From the sequence record OR427838.1: a stretch of 64,000 bases of DNA; one strand, given 5' to 3'. A model generated the notes under the pieces. That model did not search any database. It was not told the origin of the DNA and saw nothing but the letters and a program-made list of their open reading frames with translations. A program made the position numbers and the translations under genes. The DNA is from Escherichia phage fDHCT2. How positions within the stretch are numbered: position 1 is the stretch's first letter; every line of letters starts with the position of its first letter. This document shows positions 9,225 through 61,487 of the stretch, piece by piece.

Positions 9225-9839
9225 TCAGTAAGAAAGAACGGAAAGATTCCAAATGGTGTAATTATTCCATTTAGGATTTCTCTCAATAGAGTCTACGCGC
9301 AGCGTAGTTCCCGCAGGGAACATCATCTCATCTTCATCATTGATTAATTGTAAGTTTGCTACACGGGTAGATTCAGGAAATGCGCCTGGGAACTCTTCAG
9401 GGGGCGCAGCACATAACATTTTAAAGATTTCTTCCTGATAATTGTATACAAATGGTGCATCATTAATACAAAAGATATTAAATGTTCCATAGAAGTTATA
9501 AGATGCAAAATTCCTTGCCACGTTGAAGTCTTTAGAGAAGCTCATTACTCGGTCGAATTCAATTACGGCACCTACACACATTGTGGACTCTAGATACTTC
9601 ATAGTCTTTTTAGATATGCCGCGATAGAGCTTATCAGGCACTACAGAAGTCAGGTTCTTACGGATAATTTTGTTCAGGGTTTCTTGGATGCAATCCGGTT
9701 TATTTTCCATACACTGCCAGAGGGTACTCTGTTCTAAATCAGAATACACCTCATCAATTTCTATCTGAGTATTCTCACGGAAATCATCGCATTTAGCGTT
9801 GTTGATAAATTCTGCTAATTTATGGCTTGGATATAACAT
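9225..9839 (-). CDS. Mod-family ADP-ribosyltransferase (modA/modB-like)
   Basis: 204 aa; R (LYRGIS), S-x-S (SFSKD) and E-x-E (EDEMMF) motifs; T4 modA/modB position. Confidence 0.75.
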   Translation of the reverse strand: MLYPSHKLAEFINNAKCDDFRENTQIEIDEVYSDLEQSTLWQCMENKPDCIQETLNKIIRKNLTSVVPDKLYRGISKKTMKYLESTMCVGAVIEFDRVMSFSKDFNVARNFASYNFYGTFNIFCINDAPFVYNYQEEIFKMLCAAPPEEFPGAFPESTRVANLQLINDEDEMMFPAGTTLRVDSIERNPKWNNYTIWNLSVLSY

Positions 9840-9864
9840 ATTATTCTCCTCAGTCGATAGAAAG

Positions 9865-9894
9865 ATAGTACCACAAGCTTCCTTGCCTGTAAAC
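9865..9894 (-). promoter_or_regulatory. T4-type early promoter
   Basis: minus GTTTAC (9889-9894), 18 nt, TACTAT (9865-9870), CTATCGAC. Confidence 0.6.
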
Positions 9895-10463
9895 TAAAAA
9901 TCCAACATTTTTAAATGAATTGTTTTATACTCGATTTCATACGGGTCTCTTTTGACGGTTTCGATTGCAACAATCTCAAATCGCGATTGGCTGGAGACCA
10001 TGAACTCACATTCAGTTTCAACCATATCATAGAGGTCAATACGAGTTTCATCAATTTCAAGTTCATCTACATTCCCTGCAAGAACAAGGTCGATAGCATG
10101 ATTGTAGTAGTCGAAAATGAACGGTGCATTCCTGAGACTTAAAATGGTTTTGGTTCCATATTCCCATGCCCCTGCGAACTGACGAGCCTGAGAGTATTGT
10201 GTACTAAAAGAAGTAACGCGACCAGGAGACCATTGACAACCTACTGAAAGGAGCTCTAATTGCTCAAGTTCTCTGGTGGTAATCCCGCGATAAAGCTCTA
10301 CAGGAACGGCCGAAGTAACATGCTTACGAACCAGTTTATCGAGGTCGTAATGAAAGTTAGGGTCCTTTTTAGCATCCAGACATTTCTCTAACAAGGCTTG
10401 TTCAGATTTTGAAAATTTGGAATTGATTCGGTCTTGATAAAGACATTTTCGTTCGATATTCAT
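9894..10463 (-). CDS. Mod-family ADP-ribosyltransferase (modA/modB-like)
   Basis: 189 aa; LYRGIT, SFSTQ, ECEFMV motifs. Confidence 0.75.
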   Translation of the reverse strand: MNIERKCLYQDRINSKFSKSEQALLEKCLDAKKDPNFHYDLDKLVRKHVTSAVPVELYRGITTRELEQLELLSVGCQWSPGRVTSFSTQYSQARQFAGAWEYGTKTILSLRNAPFIFDYYNHAIDLVLAGNVDELEIDETRIDLYDMVETECEFMVSSQSRFEIVAIETVKRDPYEIEYKTIHLKMLDF

Positions 10464-14891: not shown

Positions 14892-15326
14892 TTAACCTCG
14901 ATTCATAAAGGCATTAAAAATCTGGTCGTCAATTGAATAAACCGGAGCTTCCAGAATTTTCAACAGACTGTTTTTGATATACTTGCTAGGGATATCCATA
15001 TTAACGCGGCCGTTCAATTCGTTGTCCGGGTGGATATCTTTAAATTCAAACCCATCAAACTCAACCTTGTCCGGAAACCCGTCAGCGAAAAAATAAACCA
15101 ATTGGTGCATTGCATTGAGCGAAAATAATTTAGACTTAACAGCAATAAGTTCTTGCCAATGGTTTAATTCTCTGTTAAGAAGTTTATGAGCCATTGTAAT
15201 TCGATCATCGCTATCAACAAGAAAATAACCTAGGTATTGGTGGTCGTCGCTCCAAAACATCCTGTATGCTTGTGCATTCGGATTTTTACAACGAAGCTTT
15301 TTAATAACCAAAGTTCTGTTAATCAT
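14892..15326 (-). CDS. hypothetical protein
   Basis: track ORF trimmed to ATG 15326 (MINRTLV...) to remove overlap with sp. Confidence 0.5.
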   Translation of the reverse strand: MINRTLVIKKLRCKNPNAQAYRMFWSDDHQYLGYFLVDSDDRITMAHKLLNRELNHWQELIAVKSKLFSLNAMHQLVYFFADGFPDKVEFDGFEFKDIHPDNELNGRVNMDIPSKYIKNSLLKILEAPVYSIDDQIFNAFMNRG

Positions 15327-15327
15327 T

Positions 15328-15621
15328 TTACTCACCTGTAACCTCTTTAACGATGTTTTTGTTATCGAAATTAGCGTCACAATACAAAACATAGTTGTAC
15401 TGCATAACACCTGTTGAAGCTAATTGGTCGGACACTTCTTTAACCATGTCAGGACGGTCACGTTTAGTGATGTTCATGATATCGGCATAAATCTGATGTT
15501 CAACATCAGTTTGGTCGGCAGTCATAGACCACTCACAAAGGTCTTTATCCAATCCGGCCGTTACTGGAGCTGTACCACATGATGCTACGGTAAGAATTGC
15601 TGCGATTAATAACTTTTTCAT
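15328..15621 (-). CDS. sp: spackle-like periplasmic protein
   Basis: 97 aa with signal peptide; T4 sp position between 61 and 41. Confidence 0.7.
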   Translation of the reverse strand: MKKLLIAAILTVASCGTAPVTAGLDKDLCEWSMTADQTDVEHQIYADIMNITKRDRPDMVKEVSDQLASTGVMQYNYVLYCDANFDNKNIVKEVTGE

Positions 15622-50098: not shown

Positions 50099-50482
50099 TT
50101 ATTCTAACGTTAACAAATATTTAGTCTGGTAAAAGACCCCAGTGATATCGTCCAAAGTCGACTGGATGGCCTTAGGAAGGGTAACATAGATTTTATCAGA
50201 TGCTTTAAGAAGCTCGTCAAGGAAATCTACAGGGTCCTTAGGCAAGTCTGAAGCAGACGGTAATGATGCTTTATATTCTTTGCCACTGAATCCAAGATAT
50301 TGCTCACTAAATTGGTCCAGCGGTCCTTGAACTTCTACATAATAGAAGTCATACGCTTTGTGTCTTGCATAGCTTTTGGTTTCTAAATGGGCTGACTTAA
50401 AATAGGCTAAAGAAACCAGTAGCCAACCAATATAAGAATCCACTTCAGACCCTCGACCGGGTACGAAATCATTGAACTTCAT
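50099..50482 (-). CDS. hypothetical protein
   Basis: 127-aa ORF. Confidence 0.5.
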   Translation of the reverse strand: MKFNDFVPGRGSEVDSYIGWLLVSLAYFKSAHLETKSYARHKAYDFYYVEVQGPLDQFSEQYLGFSGKEYKASLPSASDLPKDPVDFLDELLKASDKIYVTLPKAIQSTLDDITGVFYQTKYLLTLE

Positions 50483-50762
50483 CTTCCACCTTCATTAGTT
50501 TTGCATAACGCTCTCCGATGGCACGACCCTCAATTGAGCACGCTTCTATAGTCCGACAACTTGATATCTTCCAAGAAGCCGTAACATAGGCCCAATAGTC
50601 TTCGGAGGCCTTTATGCTAGGTCTACTCATTTGCGCATAAACAGGCATCGCACTACTAGCAAATGCATCCATCAATTTATCGTGAGTATTATTTGCTAGT
50701 GAAACTGTAGGGCTTAAACATCCTGCCATAAGGATACAAGCCGCTGTACGGAAAATATCCAT
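50469..50762 (-). CDS. putative lipoprotein
   Basis: 97 aa; ...ILMAGC lipobox-like. Confidence 0.5.
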   Translation of the reverse strand: MDIFRTAACILMAGCLSPTVSLANNTHDKLMDAFASSAMPVYAQMSRPSIKASEDYWAYVTASWKISSCRTIEACSIEGRAIGERYAKLMKVEDEVQ

Positions 50763-50854
50763 ACAAAAGTCCTTTGTTGTTTTATACTATTTGCCTTTCG
50801 GCCTTAACCGATAGCGATTACCAAAAGCTAAAGCTCTACGGTTAGTATTATTAT

Positions 50855-51133
50855 TTATAGCTTTTTAAGCTTACGACAATAAGAATAGAACACGTCGTTA
50901 AAATTATGCTCAACCCAATTCCTCTGTATAGGCGAGGTAATGGAAAGCATATAATGGGCTTTAATTAAATCCATCCCATTTTTATTAGGACATTCTTTAT
51001 TATTAGCATTATACGTCGCCGCTACAACCTCTATCTCTCTTTTGTAAGCCACATCATCCATGATAGGCGAAAGAACAATATAAGAAATAGCCACAGCGAA
51101 CGCTAGAATTAAAATCTTTGAATTTAGGTCCAT
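50855..51133 (-). CDS. small membrane protein
   Basis: 92 aa, N-terminal TM. Confidence 0.5.
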   Translation of the reverse strand: MDLNSKILILAFAVAISYIVLSPIMDDVAYKREIEVVAATYNANNKECPNKNGMDLIKAHYMLSITSPIQRNWVEHNFNDVFYSYCRKLKKL

Positions 51134-51140
51134 AGTACCC

Positions 51141-51713
51141 TCAACTCGTTATTTCTATCCAGTGCTTCCTGCACAATGACACGTAAGAATCGTTGCCACC
51201 TATAGAAACTTGGGCTCCGTCCTTAATTGCGACACCATCTTGGACCCTAGCAGTCATAGTAGCTTTACGGCCGCAATGGCACACACCTTTGTACTCAACG
51301 AGTTTATCTGCCGTAGCGAGTAATTCAGCAGAACCAGGAAACAGTTTACCCTGAAAATCAGTTCTTAGCCCATAGCACATAACTGGAACATTATAATTGT
51401 CTACTATCTTTGCCAGTTGTTTTATCTGTGCAGGTTCTAAGAACTGCGCTTCATCCACAAATACACAGTGGATATCTTTTTGAGATTCAGCCCAACGATA
51501 GAACTCGTATAGGTCCATATCCGGAGTCACTGCATTAGCCTCTTGACTAATCCCTATACGAGACGAAATGGTATGGCTTGATTCTCTATTGTCTATCGCA
51601 GGCTTTAAAAGGAGCACGCCCATACCACGTTCTTTGTAGTTATGAGCTGCCGTTAGCAATGAAGCGGTCTTACCTGAGTTCATTGCCGCATAGTGAAACA
51701 TCAAACTTGCCAT
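51141..51713 (-). CDS. tk: thymidine kinase
   Basis: 190 aa; MASLMFHYAAMNSGKTASLL... near-identical to remembered T4 Tk. Confidence 0.95.
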   Translation of the reverse strand: MASLMFHYAAMNSGKTASLLTAAHNYKERGMGVLLLKPAIDNRESSHTISSRIGISQEANAVTPDMDLYEFYRWAESQKDIHCVFVDEAQFLEPAQIKQLAKIVDNYNVPVMCYGLRTDFQGKLFPGSAELLATADKLVEYKGVCHCGRKATMTARVQDGVAIKDGAQVSIGGNDSYVSLCRKHWIEITS

Positions 51714-51722
51714 ATCACCTTC

Positions 51723-51929
51723 TTAAAGCGTATTCACATAAGCAATTAATTCGTTTTCTTTCTCATCAAATCTATTAGCAAATTCTTCCAGATGTTCGGC
51801 ATCTATCGGGCCATATTCATCGTAAAAAGCGTTTGCTTCTGTATGCTCATCCAAAAGCTCATGGATAAGCTCAAACAATTTATCTTTCTGTTCTTTACTC
51901 AGACTCATAACCATTGCACCTTTAAGCAA
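51723..51929 (-). CDS. hypothetical small protein
   Basis: 68-aa ORF. Confidence 0.45.
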   Translation of the reverse strand: MLKGAMVMSLSKEQKDKLFELIHELLDEHTEANAFYDEYGPIDAEHLEEFANRFDEKENELIAYVNTL

Positions 51930-52117
51930 TATTCTTCTACATGCTGTTTACGTTTATTTTTATCTATAAAAGTATATTCAACATATTCACCGATATACCA
52001 TTTATCAGTGTTGTGTTGACTTTTTATAGGGCATTTAGTTACTCGGGTTTCGGTCCAGCGCCGAATAATTTCAGCTTTATTTTTAGGGTCAAATGGATGC
52101 GGGTAATGTGCTTTCAT
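51905..52117 (-). CDS. hypothetical small protein
   Basis: 70-aa ORF. Confidence 0.45.
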   Translation of the reverse strand: MKAHYPHPFDPKNKAEIIRRWTETRVTKCPIKSQHNTDKWYIGEYVEYTFIDKNKRKQHVEEYCLKVQWL

Positions 52118-52568
52118 AATCCACCACTATTAAATCAATATCAGGAGTAAACATGTCGATTAATTTAGAAACCTTGTCCCAATCGCCGCCAGCAATACCA
52201 CAACCTATGCGCGGAATATAAATTCTTGGTTTAAACAAAAGGGTTTCTGCTTGTAGATTTAATTCTATCATACAGTTTACTAAAGCACCGTAATCAAGAT
52301 TAGGGCCTGGTTCGTATTGTGTGTATAAATTATAGCACATTGCAAATCCATTAGGCTTATGTTTAAAAGCAATAGACATATCACCCAATTTATCTCGAGA
52401 GCCGTATTCGGTAGTAGTCTTATCAATTTCTAAAATTTTAGGATAAGCCTTAGCCAATTGTCCAGCTACACCTGAACCCATAGTGTGAAAACAATTACAC
52501 CCATGTGCAATAATATTACCTTGGAGAAACAGGGCGACGATATCGCCCTTAATATAATCAATAATCAT
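52089..52568 (-). CDS. macro-domain (ADP-ribose binding/processing) protein
   Basis: 159 aa; ...NIIAHGCNCFHTMGSGVAGQLAKAYP... typical macro signature. Confidence 0.7.
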   Translation of the reverse strand: MIIDYIKGDIVALFLQGNIIAHGCNCFHTMGSGVAGQLAKAYPKILEIDKTTTEYGSRDKLGDMSIAFKHKPNGFAMCYNLYTQYEPGPNLDYGALVNCMIELNLQAETLLFKPRIYIPRIGCGIAGGDWDKVSKLIDMFTPDIDLIVVDYESTLPASI

Positions 52569-52921
52569 TTAGAGTTTAGCCCTCGATTGTAAGAGTCAAC
52601 GAGTCTGTCTACCATAGACGCGCACATTTCTTTGTACTTTTTATCAGACGGAACACATTCAGTAACGTTTAGACGTTGCTCGTATCTTTTAGAAAGAGTT
52701 TTCTCTTTCATTCGGCGATGCTCGACGTCGTTCTGTCCATCTTTAAAAGCAGCTGTTATTTTTGAACTGAATTCAATAATACATTCAGTATTACTAGGAT
52801 GACAATAATCTTTTGCTGTACGGGTAGCATACTCGACAATTGAATTATTGCTATCATCAACTTGTGACGCTAATACTCCCGGAGCGATCAACATAAGCGC
52901 TATAGTCATCTGTTTAATCAT
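52565..52921 (-). CDS. secreted hypothetical protein
   Basis: 118 aa; signal peptide. Confidence 0.5.
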   Translation of the reverse strand: MIKQMTIALMLIAPGVLASQVDDSNNSIVEYATRTAKDYCHPSNTECIIEFSSKITAAFKDGQNDVEHRRMKEKTLSKRYEQRLNVTECVPSDKKYKEMCASMVDRLVDSYNRGLNSK

Positions 52922-53461
52922 TTAATATACCGCCTCAAACATCTTTTTAGATTTTAGGTAATTGGCCTTTTCTAGAACTTCAGAAGCATATTTACTGCCT
53001 GCTTTGACGTCCCAGCCCGCATTATAAGAAGCAATCGCTTTTCTCAGGTCACCTTTGTGAACACCAATCCAATAAGACAGTTCAATGTAGGCCCAAGAGG
53101 CACTGTTCTGTCGTTTTTGGACCATACGGATTATTTCTTTATCAGACATCTTCCAACCTACCTGTTGAACACGACTTCTTAACGTAGGCAAGTAATTTTG
53201 GAACATGCCATAAGCATGGTGCTTATCTTTATTTAAACCCTGATTAATTCCGGCGGATGATTCCTGCCATAGTAATCCGGCCATGATATATCCTAATCCT
53301 TTTTGATTAGGGTTTTCTTTGAACTTTCCCGACTTTTGGTATTGTTCACCGAAAGCATACGCATAATGTAAATTATCGAGTTGTTCATTACTGAAAGTAG
53401 GCTCTACGCTATGGGCAGACATACTAACTGTCAATAGTAAAGTGGCTAATACTTTTTTCAT
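52922..53461 (-). CDS. lytic-transglycosylase-domain protein with signal peptide
   Basis: 179 aa; WQESSAG, GMFQ and ASYNAGW motifs. Confidence 0.65.
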   Translation of the reverse strand: MKKVLATLLLTVSMSAHSVEPTFSNEQLDNLHYAYAFGEQYQKSGKFKENPNQKGLGYIMAGLLWQESSAGINQGLNKDKHHAYGMFQNYLPTLRSRVQQVGWKMSDKEIIRMVQKRQNSASWAYIELSYWIGVHKGDLRKAIASYNAGWDVKAGSKYASEVLEKANYLKSKKMFEAVY

Positions 53462-53473
53462 GAGACCTCATTA

Positions 53474-53932
53474 TTAAAGATAGATTACTTTCGTGCTGGT
53501 TTTACCTTCTAAACGTTTAGAGTTAACAAATGCCATACGACATTTTAATGAATATCCTTTATCAGGATGTTTACGATCTACGGTCATACCTAGCCATAAG
53601 GTTTTATCGGTAATTTCGAGACGCAATGGACGATACACTTTACCAGGGACAATTTCGGATTCTACATCAGGCAGAGGTTCCTGGATTAAGAATTCATGGA
53701 TTTCTTTAACATGGTTATGGAGTTGCTTGAATAAAGCAAAAACGTATTTTTCGTCGATTTCACGTTGGATAGCACGGTCCAACAAGTGATTAGAGTACTT
53801 AATAAAGAAAGCTGGGACACCGCTCTTGATGGCGGCTTTTTTGATGGACGCGTTAAGTTCACGAAATTCGGTTTCGAACTGACGACGTAATTTGTTGCGG
53901 CGGATGAATACTTCTGAATTAATTTCTGACAT
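53474..53932 (-). CDS. regB: endoribonuclease RegB
   Basis: start at MSEINSEVFIRRNKLRR (53932, RBS AGGAGA); collinear with remembered T4 RegB. Confidence 0.9.
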   Translation of the reverse strand: MSEINSEVFIRRNKLRRQFETEFRELNASIKKAAIKSGVPAFFIKYSNHLLDRAIQREIDEKYVFALFKQLHNHVKEIHEFLIQEPLPDVESEIVPGKVYRPLRLEITDKTLWLGMTVDRKHPDKGYSLKCRMAFVNSKRLEGKTSTKVIYL

Positions 53933-53960
53933 TTTGTAATCTCCTGTAGTTGATAGGTTT

Positions 53961-53989
53961 ATAGTATCATGTCTACAGGAGATGTAAAC
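53961..53989 (-). promoter_or_regulatory. T4-type early promoter (regB) with RBS-sequestering repeat
   Basis: minus GTTTAC (53984-53989), 17 nt, TGATACTAT, AAACCTATCAAC; perfect 11-bp repeat ATCTCCTGTAG (53939-53949) / CTACAGGAGAT (53973-53983). Confidence 0.7.
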
Positions 53990-53993
53990 AGCT

Positions 53994-54272
53994 TTAGTAC
54001 TTTTCTTCCGGTTGGAACACGGAACGACAAGCCCACATACTAGCTTCTTTAAGACGGTCAATTGCATTACGAATCTGGGTAATGCGTTCATGAGCCTGGT
54101 CTAGTTCTTGTTCAGAAACCTCTTCGGTATCTAAGTTCATATAATAGGTAACATGTTCTTCTTCTAGAGCTTTAAACATCAGCCCTAACCGAACTTCAGC
54201 ATCTTTAATGGCATTCACTTTACCGATTTTATCGTCGGTATGTGGCTTGTAACCTTTGATATCTTCAATCAT
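53994..54272 (-). CDS. hypothetical protein
   Basis: 92-aa ORF. Confidence 0.5.
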   Translation of the reverse strand: MIEDIKGYKPHTDDKIGKVNAIKDAEVRLGLMFKALEEEHVTYYMNLDTEEVSEQELDQAHERITQIRNAIDRLKEASMWACRSVFQPEEKY

Positions 54273-54487
54273 TTCACTTCCTCATCAGATGCAATATCAT
54301 ATTCTACAAAACGAAGGCCATCGTATCCACCACTAACAGAGATATACGTAGTCGGGTAAACAATTTCTTTACCATTCCATTGGCCGCCGTCCCAACATTC
54401 CAAAAAGCCTTGTTCGCCTTGTTCGTGGAACCAATCAACAAACATCTTCAGAGCTTCATCAGAGCCTTCAATTGCCAATTTAGACAT
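54269..54487 (-). CDS. hypothetical small protein
   Basis: 72-aa ORF. Confidence 0.45.
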   Translation of the reverse strand: MSKLAIEGSDEALKMFVDWFHEQGEQGFLECWDGGQWNGKEIVYPTTYISVSGGYDGLRFVEYDIASDEEVK

Positions 54488-54776
54488 ATTTCTTCCAGCC
54501 AGAAATCATATGAATCTCTTGGTCGTATGTCAAGAGACTACGAGTTATAATACCCTTACAAGGCCCTGAGATGAACTCGAGAGTGAAGTAAGGAACCTGT
54601 TTCATTAATCGGATACTAGGAGCATGACATCTAAAACGAGAGCCCTTAAAGGGCCCTGACATGAATACATATTCTAATGGATAGAAATAAGCATATTCGA
54701 AATTTGCAGTAAGGTCCTCTCTTCGAACCTTACGTGAGAAATAACAGAACTCAAAAAGTTCTTCATCAGTCATCAT
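54480..54776 (-). CDS. hypothetical protein
   Basis: 98-aa ORF. Confidence 0.5.
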   Translation of the reverse strand: MMTDEELFEFCYFSRKVRREDLTANFEYAYFYPLEYVFMSGPFKGSRFRCHAPSIRLMKQVPYFTLEFISGPCKGIITRSLLTYDQEIHMISGWKKYV

Positions 54777-55300
54777 TGCATTCCTATCACAAAGAACAGC
54801 GGCAGAGGTTTAGAACCCTGGCACATAAATTTGTTAATCATTACCTGGTAAGCTTCATAGAACTTATCCATCGATGGAAGGCGCATTGGCTCTTCGATAA
54901 TAATCAATAATCGAGTAACTGATAGACCACGATACTTATGGAAGTTATCTTCGTCTAAAAATGATCGCACGGTATCATATACAATAAACCCAGGACCTTC
55001 TACTTGAAGATGTGGATGAGCCTTAGAAACCCTTTTTATTACATTACAGATTTCGCGTGACCGGTGCGAAGAACTCGACATAACAATCACATCATTACCC
55101 TTGGAAACCCAATCAGCTGCGAACTGGGCAAGGGCACTTGTTTTACCTGTTTGGCGCCCGCCGTCAAGTCGAAGAGTACCAAACTCTTGCATTCTTGAAG
55201 TAGGTTCGTACCAGGTGTATTGGTTTGAGTCTAAACGTTCAATGGCGCGTTCAGCGAAGGCGTGCATTAAGGTTAGATAAATGGGAGTTAAAAATTTCAT
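54773..55300 (-). CDS. hypothetical protein with P-loop-like motif
   Basis: 175 aa; GGRQTGKTS. Confidence 0.55.
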   Translation of the reverse strand: MKFLTPIYLTLMHAFAERAIERLDSNQYTWYEPTSRMQEFGTLRLDGGRQTGKTSALAQFAADWVSKGNDVIVMSSSSHRSREICNVIKRVSKAHPHLQVEGPGFIVYDTVRSFLDEDNFHKYRGLSVTRLLIIIEEPMRLPSMDKFYEAYQVMINKFMCQGSKPLPLFFVIGMQ

Positions 55301-60085: not shown

Positions 60086-61045
60086 TTATTTTTCGAAAGG
60101 ACGAATTAAATGATGGTTATCTTGGAAACGCTTGATGTAGTCGTTTTCACCTAAAGTCTTATACATATTCACTACAGCTTGGTAGTTTTCCCAGGCGTAC
60201 TCGCGGAACCAACCTGAAGTGATTGAGGTACACACTTTCTCAAGAGCCATATAAAAACTTAATGATGGTGAAATATTGAAGTCATTAGGAACCTGTGAAC
60301 GTTCTAGTGCCAGGACACAAGTTTCTTCATATACACCAGCCAGTTTAATAGCTTCAGGCAAAGCCTCGAACTTCTCACGAGAGGTCATGACTTCAGAACC
60401 TTCCTTCATATAAAAGGTATATGCAGGGCGTCCAGCCAATGCTACTGCTTCATGAATAGAGTCATGGTCCAGCGTATAAATGGTATCATTAAAGAACGAT
60501 GATTTGTTTACGTCCAATTTAGGGTGAGAATAGCTCAACGTTTCTTTTTGACGTTGCAACATAATTTCCCGGAGTTCTTCGTTCAGGGTGATACCTTTAT
60601 TACGAAGGTATTTGATGTGGGACATAGTTTTCAAGAAGAACGGATTATTCTTCAGGAAACGATGAGAGGTTTTGATAGCCAGACAGATATCAGGGGTTGC
60701 CCAATAGAAACCAGTAAGACGGTCCTTTTTAATATGATTTTCAGCATATTTCAGGAGACGATAACTTGAAGTGAAATCTTCGTCTTGAAGCTCGCCAGTA
60801 ATTTCTCGTACGTTAGTCAGAGCACGGACAATATAAGCTTCAAAATAGGTTTCTTTACCATTGTACATACATTTAAAGGCCTGGACATCAGGGTTATCCA
60901 CAGGAACATGAGCGCCGAACATCCGGGCTTTAAAGTGATTCCATGAGCCTTGGTCGGCAATGAAATCCCAATCAGAATTTTCGATATGCTTACTTTCAAT
61001 CAGACCAGCGTGGTGCAGTGCACGAGAACCAATAACTAGCATCAT
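60086..61045 (-). CDS. hypothetical protein
   Basis: 319-aa ORF; RBS GAGGAAAAT. Confidence 0.55.
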   Translation of the reverse strand: MMLVIGSRALHHAGLIESKHIENSDWDFIADQGSWNHFKARMFGAHVPVDNPDVQAFKCMYNGKETYFEAYIVRALTNVREITGELQDEDFTSSYRLLKYAENHIKKDRLTGFYWATPDICLAIKTSHRFLKNNPFFLKTMSHIKYLRNKGITLNEELREIMLQRQKETLSYSHPKLDVNKSSFFNDTIYTLDHDSIHEAVALAGRPAYTFYMKEGSEVMTSREKFEALPEAIKLAGVYEETCVLALERSQVPNDFNISPSLSFYMALEKVCTSITSGWFREYAWENYQAVVNMYKTLGENDYIKRFQDNHHLIRPFEK

Positions 61046-61058
61046 AATATTTTCCTCA

Positions 61059-61226
61059 TTAATAAAGACGAGTTACTTCATATTTACCCAGTTCAGATTT
61101 TTTTGCTTCAATACGCGTTGCGGCTAGATTAGCAGCCTCTAGTGAAGAAAATTGGACCACTTGGGAAGTATTCTGCCTTACGCCACCTTGTGGGTGAGTA
61201 ACAAAAACAATAAGAACATTATACAT
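61059..61226 (-). CDS. hypothetical small protein (55 aa, hand-called)
   Basis: MYNVLIVFVTHPQGGVRQNTSQVVQFSS...; RBS GAGGAAAA. Confidence 0.4.
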   Translation of the reverse strand: MYNVLIVFVTHPQGGVRQNTSQVVQFSSLEAANLAATRIEAKKSELGKYEVTRLY

Positions 61227-61247
61227 AATATTTTCCTCAGAGTAAAC

Positions 61248-61487
61248 TTAAATTTCAGCAACGTAATCGTTATGCAATTCCCACATATCATCAGAATTAT
61301 TCTTAATGATAGGAATTATCTCATTAGAGATTTCTTCTGCATAAGGGTCATTGATACAGTGGGCATCTTCAAAACGAACACCGTAATCAGACTTCTTATA
61401 GGCAAAGCCATAAATCTTTTTAAACTTGGCACGACTAATTCGTACCGGCTCATCAGACTTATCAGACAATGGAGAGTAATACCACAT
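61248..61487 (-). CDS. hypothetical small protein
   Basis: 79-aa ORF; RBS GAGGAG. Confidence 0.5.
   Translation of the reverse strand: MWYYSPLSDKSDEPVRISRAKFKKIYGFAYKKSDYGVRFEDAHCINDPYAEEISNEIIPIIKNNSDDMWELHNDYVAEI

What the first reader, a model, noticed from the sequence alone, without database searches (positions are those of the whole stretch)
52089..52568. Macro-domain protein in a genome that also encodes Mod-type ADP-ribosyltransferases
The 159-aa protein has the glycine-rich macro signature (HGCNCFHTMGSGVAGQLA). Macro domains bind or remove ADP-ribose. In a phage with two Mod-family ARTs (9225-10463) it could reverse host ADP-ribosylation defences or edit the phage's own modifications. 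I do not remember a macro-domain gene at this T4 position.
Basis: partly seen in the sequence, partly recalled or inferred. Interest (0 to 1): 0.5.

Follow-up and report, generated by a model that had tools for sequence, protein, structure and literature searches.

The report
Phage T4 tk.4/adfM macrodomain orthologue
The 159-residue protein is a real macrodomain, but it is the ordinary orthologue of phage T4 gene tk.4, recently named adfM and shown genetically to protect T4 from the bacterial DarTG2 DNA-ADP-ribosylating defence, so the gene is already known.

Summary
The ORF at 52089-52568 (minus strand, 159 aa) is real. It passes Pfam Macro and folds with high confidence (pLDDT 94) into a macrodomain whose nearest solved relatives are BT1257/SCO6735, DarG, Poa1p and TARG1.

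The claim that T4 has no macrodomain gene here is wrong.

A 2025 preprint (HIDEN-SEQ) found tk.4 as the single transposon-screen hit under DarTG2. A clean knockout sensitised T4 to DarTG2, and the gene was renamed adfM. The "reverse a host ADP-ribosylation defence" idea is therefore right but already published. The "edit the phage's own Mod marks" idea has no support.

One nuance: the Tk.4 family has an invariant Gln84 where DarG (K80), PhiKZ AdfM (K78) and TARG1 (K84) have the catalytic lysine. It matches Streptomyces SCO6735 (Gln85), a lysine-less macrodomain shown to cleave thymidine-linked ADP-ribose.

Verdict: already known, low interest.

The parts
52089..52568 (-). tk.4 / adfM coding sequence (159 aa plus stop): a stand-alone macrodomain protein
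   Evidence: ORF; Pfam Macro; JS98 annotation as tk.4; 57% identity to T4 Tk.4; AF2 model pLDDT 94.
52464..52505 (-). Codons 22-35, HGCNCFHTMGSGVA: the H-G-C-N active-site strand end plus the first glycine-rich ADP-ribose (diphosphate) loop. N25 aligns with DarG N22 and PhiKZ AdfM N23. H22-G23-C24-N25 aligns with SCO6735 H24-V25-C26-N27.
   Evidence: H22, G23, N25 and C26 are present in all 119 sequences that cover these columns (121 aligned); G33 and A35 are in all 121. Alignments A2 and A4. Active-site residues from PMC13309987 and PMC9411070.
52317..52331 (-). Codons 80-84, N-L-Y-T-Q: the catalytic-loop motif. Gln84 occupies the position of the catalytic Lys of DarG (K80), PhiKZ AdfM (K78) and TARG1 (K84), and of Gln85 of SCO6735.
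   Evidence: Q84, N80 and Y82 are invariant in 121 of 121 sequences. hhalign against TARG1; multiple alignments A2 and A4.
52179..52214 (-). Codons 119-130, PRIGCGIAGGDW: the second glycine-rich loop. It is almost identical to PRIGCGLAGGTW of SCO6735 and PRIGCGLAGGKW of BT1257. Ala126 sits where TARG1 has the catalytic Asp125.
52580..52584 (-). Shine-Dalgarno-like GAGGG, with 11 nt between it and the ATG. The ATG overlaps the stop codon of the upstream gene vs (ATGA, 52565-52568), which suggests coupled translation within the vs-tk.4-tk.3 gene run.
   Evidence: Sequence read directly; ORF coordinates. The role is inferred, not tested.

Best explanation
The gene is the Dhakavirus (JS98-group) orthologue of phage T4 tk.4, now called adfM (anti-DarT factor, macrodomain). 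[quoted passage not shown] The host DarTG2 defence releases DarT2, which attaches ADP-ribose to N3 of thymidine in single-stranded phage DNA and blocks replication. The phage macrodomain most likely binds the ADP-ribose through its two glycine-rich loops and hydrolyses the ribose-thymine bond, restoring replicable DNA. It would thus act as an orphan antitoxin that works on the lesion rather than on one particular toxin. Its chemistry is probably that of Streptomyces SCO6735 rather than of DarG. An invariant Gln84 replaces the catalytic lysine and would position the substrate for attack by an activated water held near the H22-G23-C24-N25 strand end. What is shown here: the ORF, the fold, orthology and synteny with T4 tk.4, and the Gln-for-Lys active-site make-up. 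What comes from the literature: T4 lacking tk.4 becomes sensitive to DarTG2, and SCO6735 (Gln85) cleaves thymidine-ADP-ribose. What is inferred: that this orthologue does the same, and that it does so by hydrolysis.
Against: No biochemistry exists for any Tk.4-family protein; the T4 evidence is genetic and comes from a preprint. The preprint's hydrolase mechanism is argued by analogy with DarG, whose critical Lys80 (PMC11543638) is absent here. This orthologue is only 57% identical to T4 Tk.4 and was not itself tested. SCO6735 Q85A still inhibits DarT in vitro, so a binding mode cannot be excluded. SCO6735 residues K34 and K89, implicated in DNA or diphosphate contacts, are not conserved in Tk.4 (they align with S32 and G88 by my own position count in A4).
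Confidence: 0.75

Rival explanations
1. It is a small-molecule ADP-ribose-derivative enzyme, the old 'A1pp phosphatase' annotation. In this reading it is a Poa1p-like ADP-ribose-1''-phosphate phosphatase or an O-acetyl-ADP-ribose deacetylase that clears by-products of RNA repair or NAD metabolism, and the DarTG2 phenotype is secondary.
For: RefSeq names it 'phosphatase; contains A1pp phosphatase motif'. Poa1p is among the best sequence and fold matches. The invariant H22-x-C-N-C resembles Poa1p H23-S-C-N-C; that comparison uses a Poa1p sequence recalled from memory, checked only against the PDB mutant names H23A and S30A.
Against: The only phenotype known for the orthologue is specific to DarTG2. 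The residue aligned with Poa1p S30, T29, is conserved in only 73 of 121 homologues. The 'phosphatase' name is an annotation transferred from the domain name, not from an assay.
Confidence: 0.08
2. It neutralises DarT2 mainly by binding the toxin or shielding its product, acting as a stoichiometric antitoxin mimic like AdfA and AdfB rather than as an eraser enzyme.
For: Catalytically dead SCO6735 Q85A inhibits DarT in vitro more strongly than dead DarG or TARG1. AdfA and AdfB act by interacting with the toxin.
Against: The protein lacks the C-terminal DarT-binding domain of DarG (159 aa; it matches only positions 1-142 of the 338-position DarG model). The invariant residues cluster in the ADP-ribose and catalytic loops, as expected for an enzyme. 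The family also occurs as an orphan gene in bacteria with no DarT next to it.
Confidence: 0.08
3. It erases or tunes the phage's own Alt/ModA/ModB ADP-ribosylation of host proteins.
For: It occurs in the same genome as two Mod-type transferases.
Against: The T4 transferases are R-S-E enzymes that modify arginine. The ALC1-like macrodomains characterised so far act on Asp/Glu esters and thymidine N3. That arginine-linked ADP-ribose is removed by ARH/DraG-type enzymes is my own knowledge, not checked here. tk.4 homologues are found in many phages (Pseudomonas PaP1-like, Vibrio, Campylobacter and Felixounavirus-like phages), but whether those phages carry Mod genes was not examined. The T4 mutant is viable, with a phenotype only on DarTG2 hosts.
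Confidence: 0.03
4. It counters a different ADP-ribose-based defence as well or instead, for example RNA ADP-ribosylation or ADP-ribose-derived immune signals.
For: Phage macrodomains have been proposed on comparative grounds to process soluble ADP-ribose derivatives from host immunity (PMC9503650). SCO6735-class enzymes appear in recent papers on RNA base ADP-ribosylation; I saw only the titles and abstracts and did not read them.
Against: There is no direct evidence. Only the DarTG2 phenotype of the T4 mutant was read here; results of the preprint's other defence screens for tk.4 were not examined.
Confidence: 0.06

Closest known systems
Phage T4 Tk.4 = AdfM (anti-DarT factor macrodomain; NP_049723; preprint 10.1101/2025.11.20.689424)
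   Same: Same length class (155 against 159 aa). 57% identity along the full length. Same genomic slot between tk.3 and vs on the early-gene strand. Same invariant motifs (HGCNC, NLYTQ, PRIG.GI..G.W).
   Different: 43% of residues differ, there are four extra C-terminal residues, and the host phage belongs to another genus (Dhakavirus rather than Tequatrovirus). The anti-DarTG2 phenotype has been shown only for the T4 protein.
Streptomyces coelicolor SCO6735 (PDB 5E3B) and Bacteroides BT1257 (2AFC/2FG1): lysine-less ALC1-like macrodomains
   Different: Only 25-29% identity. SCO6735 K34 and K89 are not conserved. The N-x-x-[G/T]-Q motif reads NLYTQ instead of NMIGQ, and Tk.4 lacks the longer loop after the Gln. 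The SCO6735-specific mobile loop was not examined. The source is bacterial rather than phage.
DarG macrodomain (T. aquaticus 5M31/5M3E, M. tuberculosis 5M3I) and PhiKZ gp104, which is also named AdfM (PMC13309987)
   Different: The catalytic Lys (K80 in DarG, K78 in gp104) is Gln in every Tk.4-family sequence. There is no C-terminal DarT-binding domain and no adjacent darT. Identity is only 19-20%. PhiKZ gp104 hits DarG at 1e-24, whereas the Tk.4 profile hits DarG only at 1e-12 to 1e-10. The two 'AdfM' proteins are therefore not orthologues.
Human TARG1/OARD1 (4J5S)
   Same: Top Foldseek hit (E 1e-9). hhalign probability 98.4% over 136 columns. TARG1 also removes thymidine-linked ADP-ribose.
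   Different: Both residues of the TARG1 catalytic dyad are replaced: K84 by Q84 and D125 by A126.
Yeast Poa1p (6LFQ), ADP-ribose-1''-phosphate phosphatase
   Different: The substrate is a small molecule. The residue aligned with Poa1p S30 is not conserved in the Tk.4 family. No phosphatase assay exists for Tk.4.

Membership tests
Macro domain superfamily (Pfam PF01661) | Sequence match above the curated gathering score | tested here: met
   32.1 bits against a cut-off of 22, E 1.3e-7, covering 116 of 118 profile positions.
Macro domain superfamily (Pfam PF01661) | Three-layer alpha/beta/alpha macro fold with a mixed central sheet | tested here: met
Macro domain superfamily (Pfam PF01661) | Two glycine-rich loops that hold the ADP-ribose diphosphate | tested here: met
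   M30-G31-S32-G33 and G122-C-G124-I-A-G127-G128 are conserved across 121 homologues.
Macro domain superfamily (Pfam PF01661) | Binds ADP-ribose | not testable with these tools
   Needs ITC or co-crystallisation.
T4 Tk.4 / AdfM orthologous group | Full-length sequence similarity to T4 Tk.4 | tested here: met
   89 of 155 residues identical, no gaps, E 2e-69.
T4 Tk.4 / AdfM orthologous group | Conserved position between tk.3 and vs in the tk-regB early gene run | tested here: met
   T4 and JS98 annotations; tblastn of the T4 neighbours onto the window gives the same order and strand.
T4 Tk.4 / AdfM orthologous group | Required for phage growth on a DarTG2-expressing host | not testable with these tools
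   Shown for T4 only.
DarG antitoxin (DarTG2; NCBIfam NF048014) | Catalytic lysine (K80) after the conserved Thr | tested here: not met
   Gln84 in the window protein and in all 121 aligned sequences. K80 is critical for DarG catalysis (PMC11543638).
DarG antitoxin (DarTG2; NCBIfam NF048014) | C-terminal DarT-binding domain (protein of about 340 aa) | tested here: not met
   159 aa. It matches model positions 1-142 of 338 only, at 27.3 bits against a cut-off of 250. PADLOC DarG positions 2-144 of 329.
DarG antitoxin (DarTG2; NCBIfam NF048014) | Encoded next to a darT toxin gene | tested here: not met
   The neighbours are tk.3 (DUF7202) and vs.
SCO6735/BT1257-type (lysine-less) ALC1-like macrodomains | Gln at the position of the DarG/TARG1 catalytic Lys, essential in SCO6735 (Q85A is inactive) | tested here: met
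   Q84 aligns with SCO6735 Gln85 and the BT1257 Gln in A4.
SCO6735/BT1257-type (lysine-less) ALC1-like macrodomains | Closest structural and sequence neighbour is within this group | tested here: met
SCO6735/BT1257-type (lysine-less) ALC1-like macrodomains | Extra mobile loop and electropositive groove said to distinguish SCO6735/ALC1 homologues | not tested
   Model coordinates were not inspected. SCO6735 K34 and K89 are not conserved by my own position count in A4.
SCO6735/BT1257-type (lysine-less) ALC1-like macrodomains | Hydrolyses thymidine-linked ADP-ribose on ssDNA | not testable with these tools
   Needs an in vitro assay.
Poa1p-type ADP-ribose-1''-phosphate phosphatase | Catalytic His23 and Ser30 equivalents | tested here: inconclusive
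   H22 is invariant, but a His is also present at this position in TARG1 and SCO6735. The Ser30-equivalent T29 is conserved in only 73 of 121 sequences. The Poa1p residue mapping rests on a sequence recalled from memory.

The most novel reading that the evidence does not exclude
T4-type AdfM (Tk.4) and PhiKZ-type AdfM would be two independent recruitments of different macrodomain lineages against the same DarT2 lesion. The PhiKZ protein is a DarG-like lysine enzyme. The Tk.4 family is an SCO6735/BT1257-like glutamine enzyme that uses a lysine-independent, water-mediated mechanism, and like SCO6735 it may also act on protein ADP-ribose or inhibit DarT directly. If so, the shared name hides convergent counter-defence, and the mechanism the preprint infers by analogy with DarG would need revising.
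Probability: 0.6. Interest if true: 0.3.

Novelty: already known. Interest (0 to 1): 0.15.

Why it matters
As a discovery it matters little. The gene is a conserved, annotated member of the T4 core-accessory set, and the function of its T4 orthologue was published in 2025. It is useful for annotation: the RefSeq label 'phosphatase' is outdated, and 'anti-DarT2 macrodomain AdfM/Tk.4' is better. It also raises a modest mechanistic point. The invariant Gln-for-Lys replacement ties the T-even AdfM to the SCO6735 type of thymidine-ADP-ribose hydrolase rather than to DarG. That predicts which mutants (Q84A, N25A) should abolish protection, and it warns against treating the two proteins named AdfM as one family.

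Tried and rejected
(1) I searched plasmids by tblastn hoping to retrieve an annotated DarG for a direct alignment. No DarG came back, only orphan macro and SLOG-fused proteins. DarG sequences came instead from PDB alignments printed with PhiKZ gp104 as the query, and the SCO6735 and BT1257 sequences came through a Streptomyces plasmid homologue.

(2) hhalign of the Tk.4 profile against PhiKZ gp104 alone shifted the catalytic loop by one residue, with low confidence. I did not rely on it. The TARG1 hhalign and two MAFFT alignments agree on T83-Q84 matching T-K.

(3) The promoter and terminator scan of 50400-55200 found no more sites than shuffled sequence (14 against 14.4; 4 against 2.9). No transcription-unit claim is made. 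The 11/12 match at 54533-54505 (minus strand) is only noted.

(5) I considered and rejected membership in DarG proper (three defining features fail), a role as eraser of Mod/Alt arginine marks, and the literal 'phosphatase' annotation.

(6) The chromosomal context of one bacterial homologue (Pelagimonas) shows no DarT or other transferase nearby, so it gave no extra functional clue.

Full report

What it is. The 3.8 kb around the ORF is 93-96% identical to the Dhakavirus group of T4-type phages (JS98, Bp7, WG01 and others). JS98 annotates the same ORF as tk.4, 'phosphatase; contains A1pp phosphatase motif'. The T4 reference genome carries tk.4 (60922-61389, 155 aa) in the same slot between tk.3 and vs. 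The two proteins are 57% identical without gaps over 155 residues (E 2e-69). T4 Tk, Tk.2, Tk.3, Tk.4, Vs, Vs.1 and RegB all map to the window in the same order and strand. Its own refutation condition, 'the T4 reference carrying an orthologous gene at the same locus', is met.

What is known about the orthologue. A 2025 preprint on transposon mapping of phage gene essentiality (HIDEN-SEQ, 10.1101/2025.11.20.689424) infected a DarTG2-expressing host with a T4 insertion library and found one significant hit, tk.4. A clean knockout sensitised T4 to DarTG2, and the gene was renamed adfM, 'anti-DarT factor Macrodomain'. The authors inferred removal of ADP-ribose from DNA by analogy with DarG and did not assay it. 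This filled a gap left by earlier work: T4 lacking both adfA (gene 61.2) and adfN (gene 30.3, a NADAR enzyme active against DarTG1) remained resistant to DarTG2 (PMC11825919).

Mechanism, and one nuance. DarT2 attaches ADP-ribose to N3 of thymidine in single-stranded DNA. The DarG macrodomain removes it, with Lys80 critical for catalysis (PMC11543638). A second phage protein also named AdfM, PhiKZ gp104, has been shown in vitro to remove DarT2-made ADP-ribose from DNA. It keeps the DarG active-site pair as N23 and K78 (PMC13309987), and by sequence it hits the DarG structures at 1e-24 to 1e-18. The Tk.4 family is different. In an hhalign against TARG1 and in two multiple alignments that include T. 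aquaticus and M. tuberculosis DarG, PhiKZ gp104, TARG1, SCO6735 and BT1257, the conserved Thr is followed by Gln84 in Tk.4 proteins, where DarG, gp104 and TARG1 have the catalytic Lys. TARG1 Asp125 is replaced by Ala126. Gln84 is invariant in all 121 sequences examined. H22, G23, N25 and C26 are present in all 119 that cover those columns, and N80 and Y82 in all 121.

Most likely function. The protein is made from the vs-tk.4-tk.3 gene run; its ATG overlaps the vs stop codon, and a GAGGG lies with 11 nt between it and the ATG. It most likely binds ADP-ribosyl-thymidine on phage single-stranded DNA and hydrolyses the glycosidic bond, which cancels DarT2 action whatever DarT2 variant the host carries. 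The ORF, the fold, orthology with T4 tk.4 and the active-site make-up are shown here. The DarTG2 phenotype (T4) and the competence of a Gln-type macrodomain for this reaction (SCO6735) come from the literature. That this orthologue does the same, and does it catalytically, is inference.

Rivals. (a) A literal Appr-1''-p phosphatase or OAADPr deacetylase. This rests on a transferred name and on similarity to Poa1p, whose Ser30-equivalent is not conserved here. (b) Stoichiometric inhibition of DarT2. This is possible because dead SCO6735 still inhibits DarT, but the conserved residues are those of the catalytic pocket. (c) Erasing the phage's own Alt/Mod marks. This is unlikely because those are arginine-linked, and ALC1-like macrodomains are characterised on Asp/Glu esters and thymidine N3. 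(d) Another ADP-ribose-based defence or signal. This remains open but has no evidence.

Novelty and score. The gene, its macrodomain nature (the 'A1pp' annotation dates from the early T4-like genome annotations) and now its counter-defence role are all known. The only mildly new point is that T-even AdfM is a Gln-type (SCO6735-like) macrodomain and PhiKZ AdfM a Lys-type (DarG-like) one, so the shared name covers two non-orthologous enzymes. Interest is low (0.15). The novelty class is 'already known'.

Dead ends. The plasmid search gave no DarG. The promoter and terminator scan was no better than shuffles. One pairwise hhalign was ambiguous by one residue. The context of a bacterial homologue showed an orphan gene without a toxin.

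Noticed in passing
window 14892..15410 (-): The ORF sitting where T4 has gene 61.2 (adfA, the anti-DarT1 factor) shares only its last 14 residues with T4 gp61.2 (SIDDQIFNAFMNRG, 14 of 14 identical). The rest shows no BLASTP similarity. It looks like a replaced gene body with a retained 3' end, so this phage may lack a functional AdfA.
   Followed up: partly
window about 51905-51910, between tk.2 (51723-51929) and tk.3 (51905-52117): Relative to JS98 the window lacks a clean segment of about 203 bp that encodes JS98 orf102 (70 aa, similar to RB32 ORF111c). There is also no homologue of T4 tk.1. This is small-ORF presence/absence variation right beside tk.4.
   Followed up: partly
window 53474..54091 (-): The mechanical regB ORF is 205 aa, but the RegB Pfam domain starts at residue 57 and T4 RegB aligns from 53923. 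The real start is probably the internal Met53 at about 53935, and the upstream extension overlaps the vs.4-like ORF 53994..54272.
   Followed up: no
window 9225..9839 and 9894..10463 (-): The two Mod-type ADP-ribosyltransferases are only 33-35% identical to T4 ModA/ModB. T4 ModB matches both ORFs, T4 ModA matches only the first. Neither hits any Pfam model; only PHROG 832 recognises them.
   Followed up: partly
window 54505..54533 (-): This is the best sigma-70-like match in the region (TTGACA, 17 nt, TATGAT; 11 of 12), upstream of the vs.4-like/regB/vs.1/vs/tk.4 gene run. It is a possible early promoter, but the number of such sites in the region equals the chance expectation.
   Followed up: no
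literature, not window: Two unrelated phage macrodomain proteins were independently named AdfM: T4 Tk.4 (Gln-type, preprint 2025) and PhiKZ gp104 (Lys-type, Cell Rep 2026). The PhiKZ paper text holds no mention of T4, T-even phages or HIDEN-SEQ.
   Followed up: yes
L005 4001-4459 (Pelagimonas phthalicica chromosome): A bacterial Tk.4-family homologue (43% identical to the window protein in alignment A1) is an orphan gene among unrelated housekeeping genes, with no ADP-ribosyltransferase nearby. In this it resembles SCO6735.
   Followed up: partly
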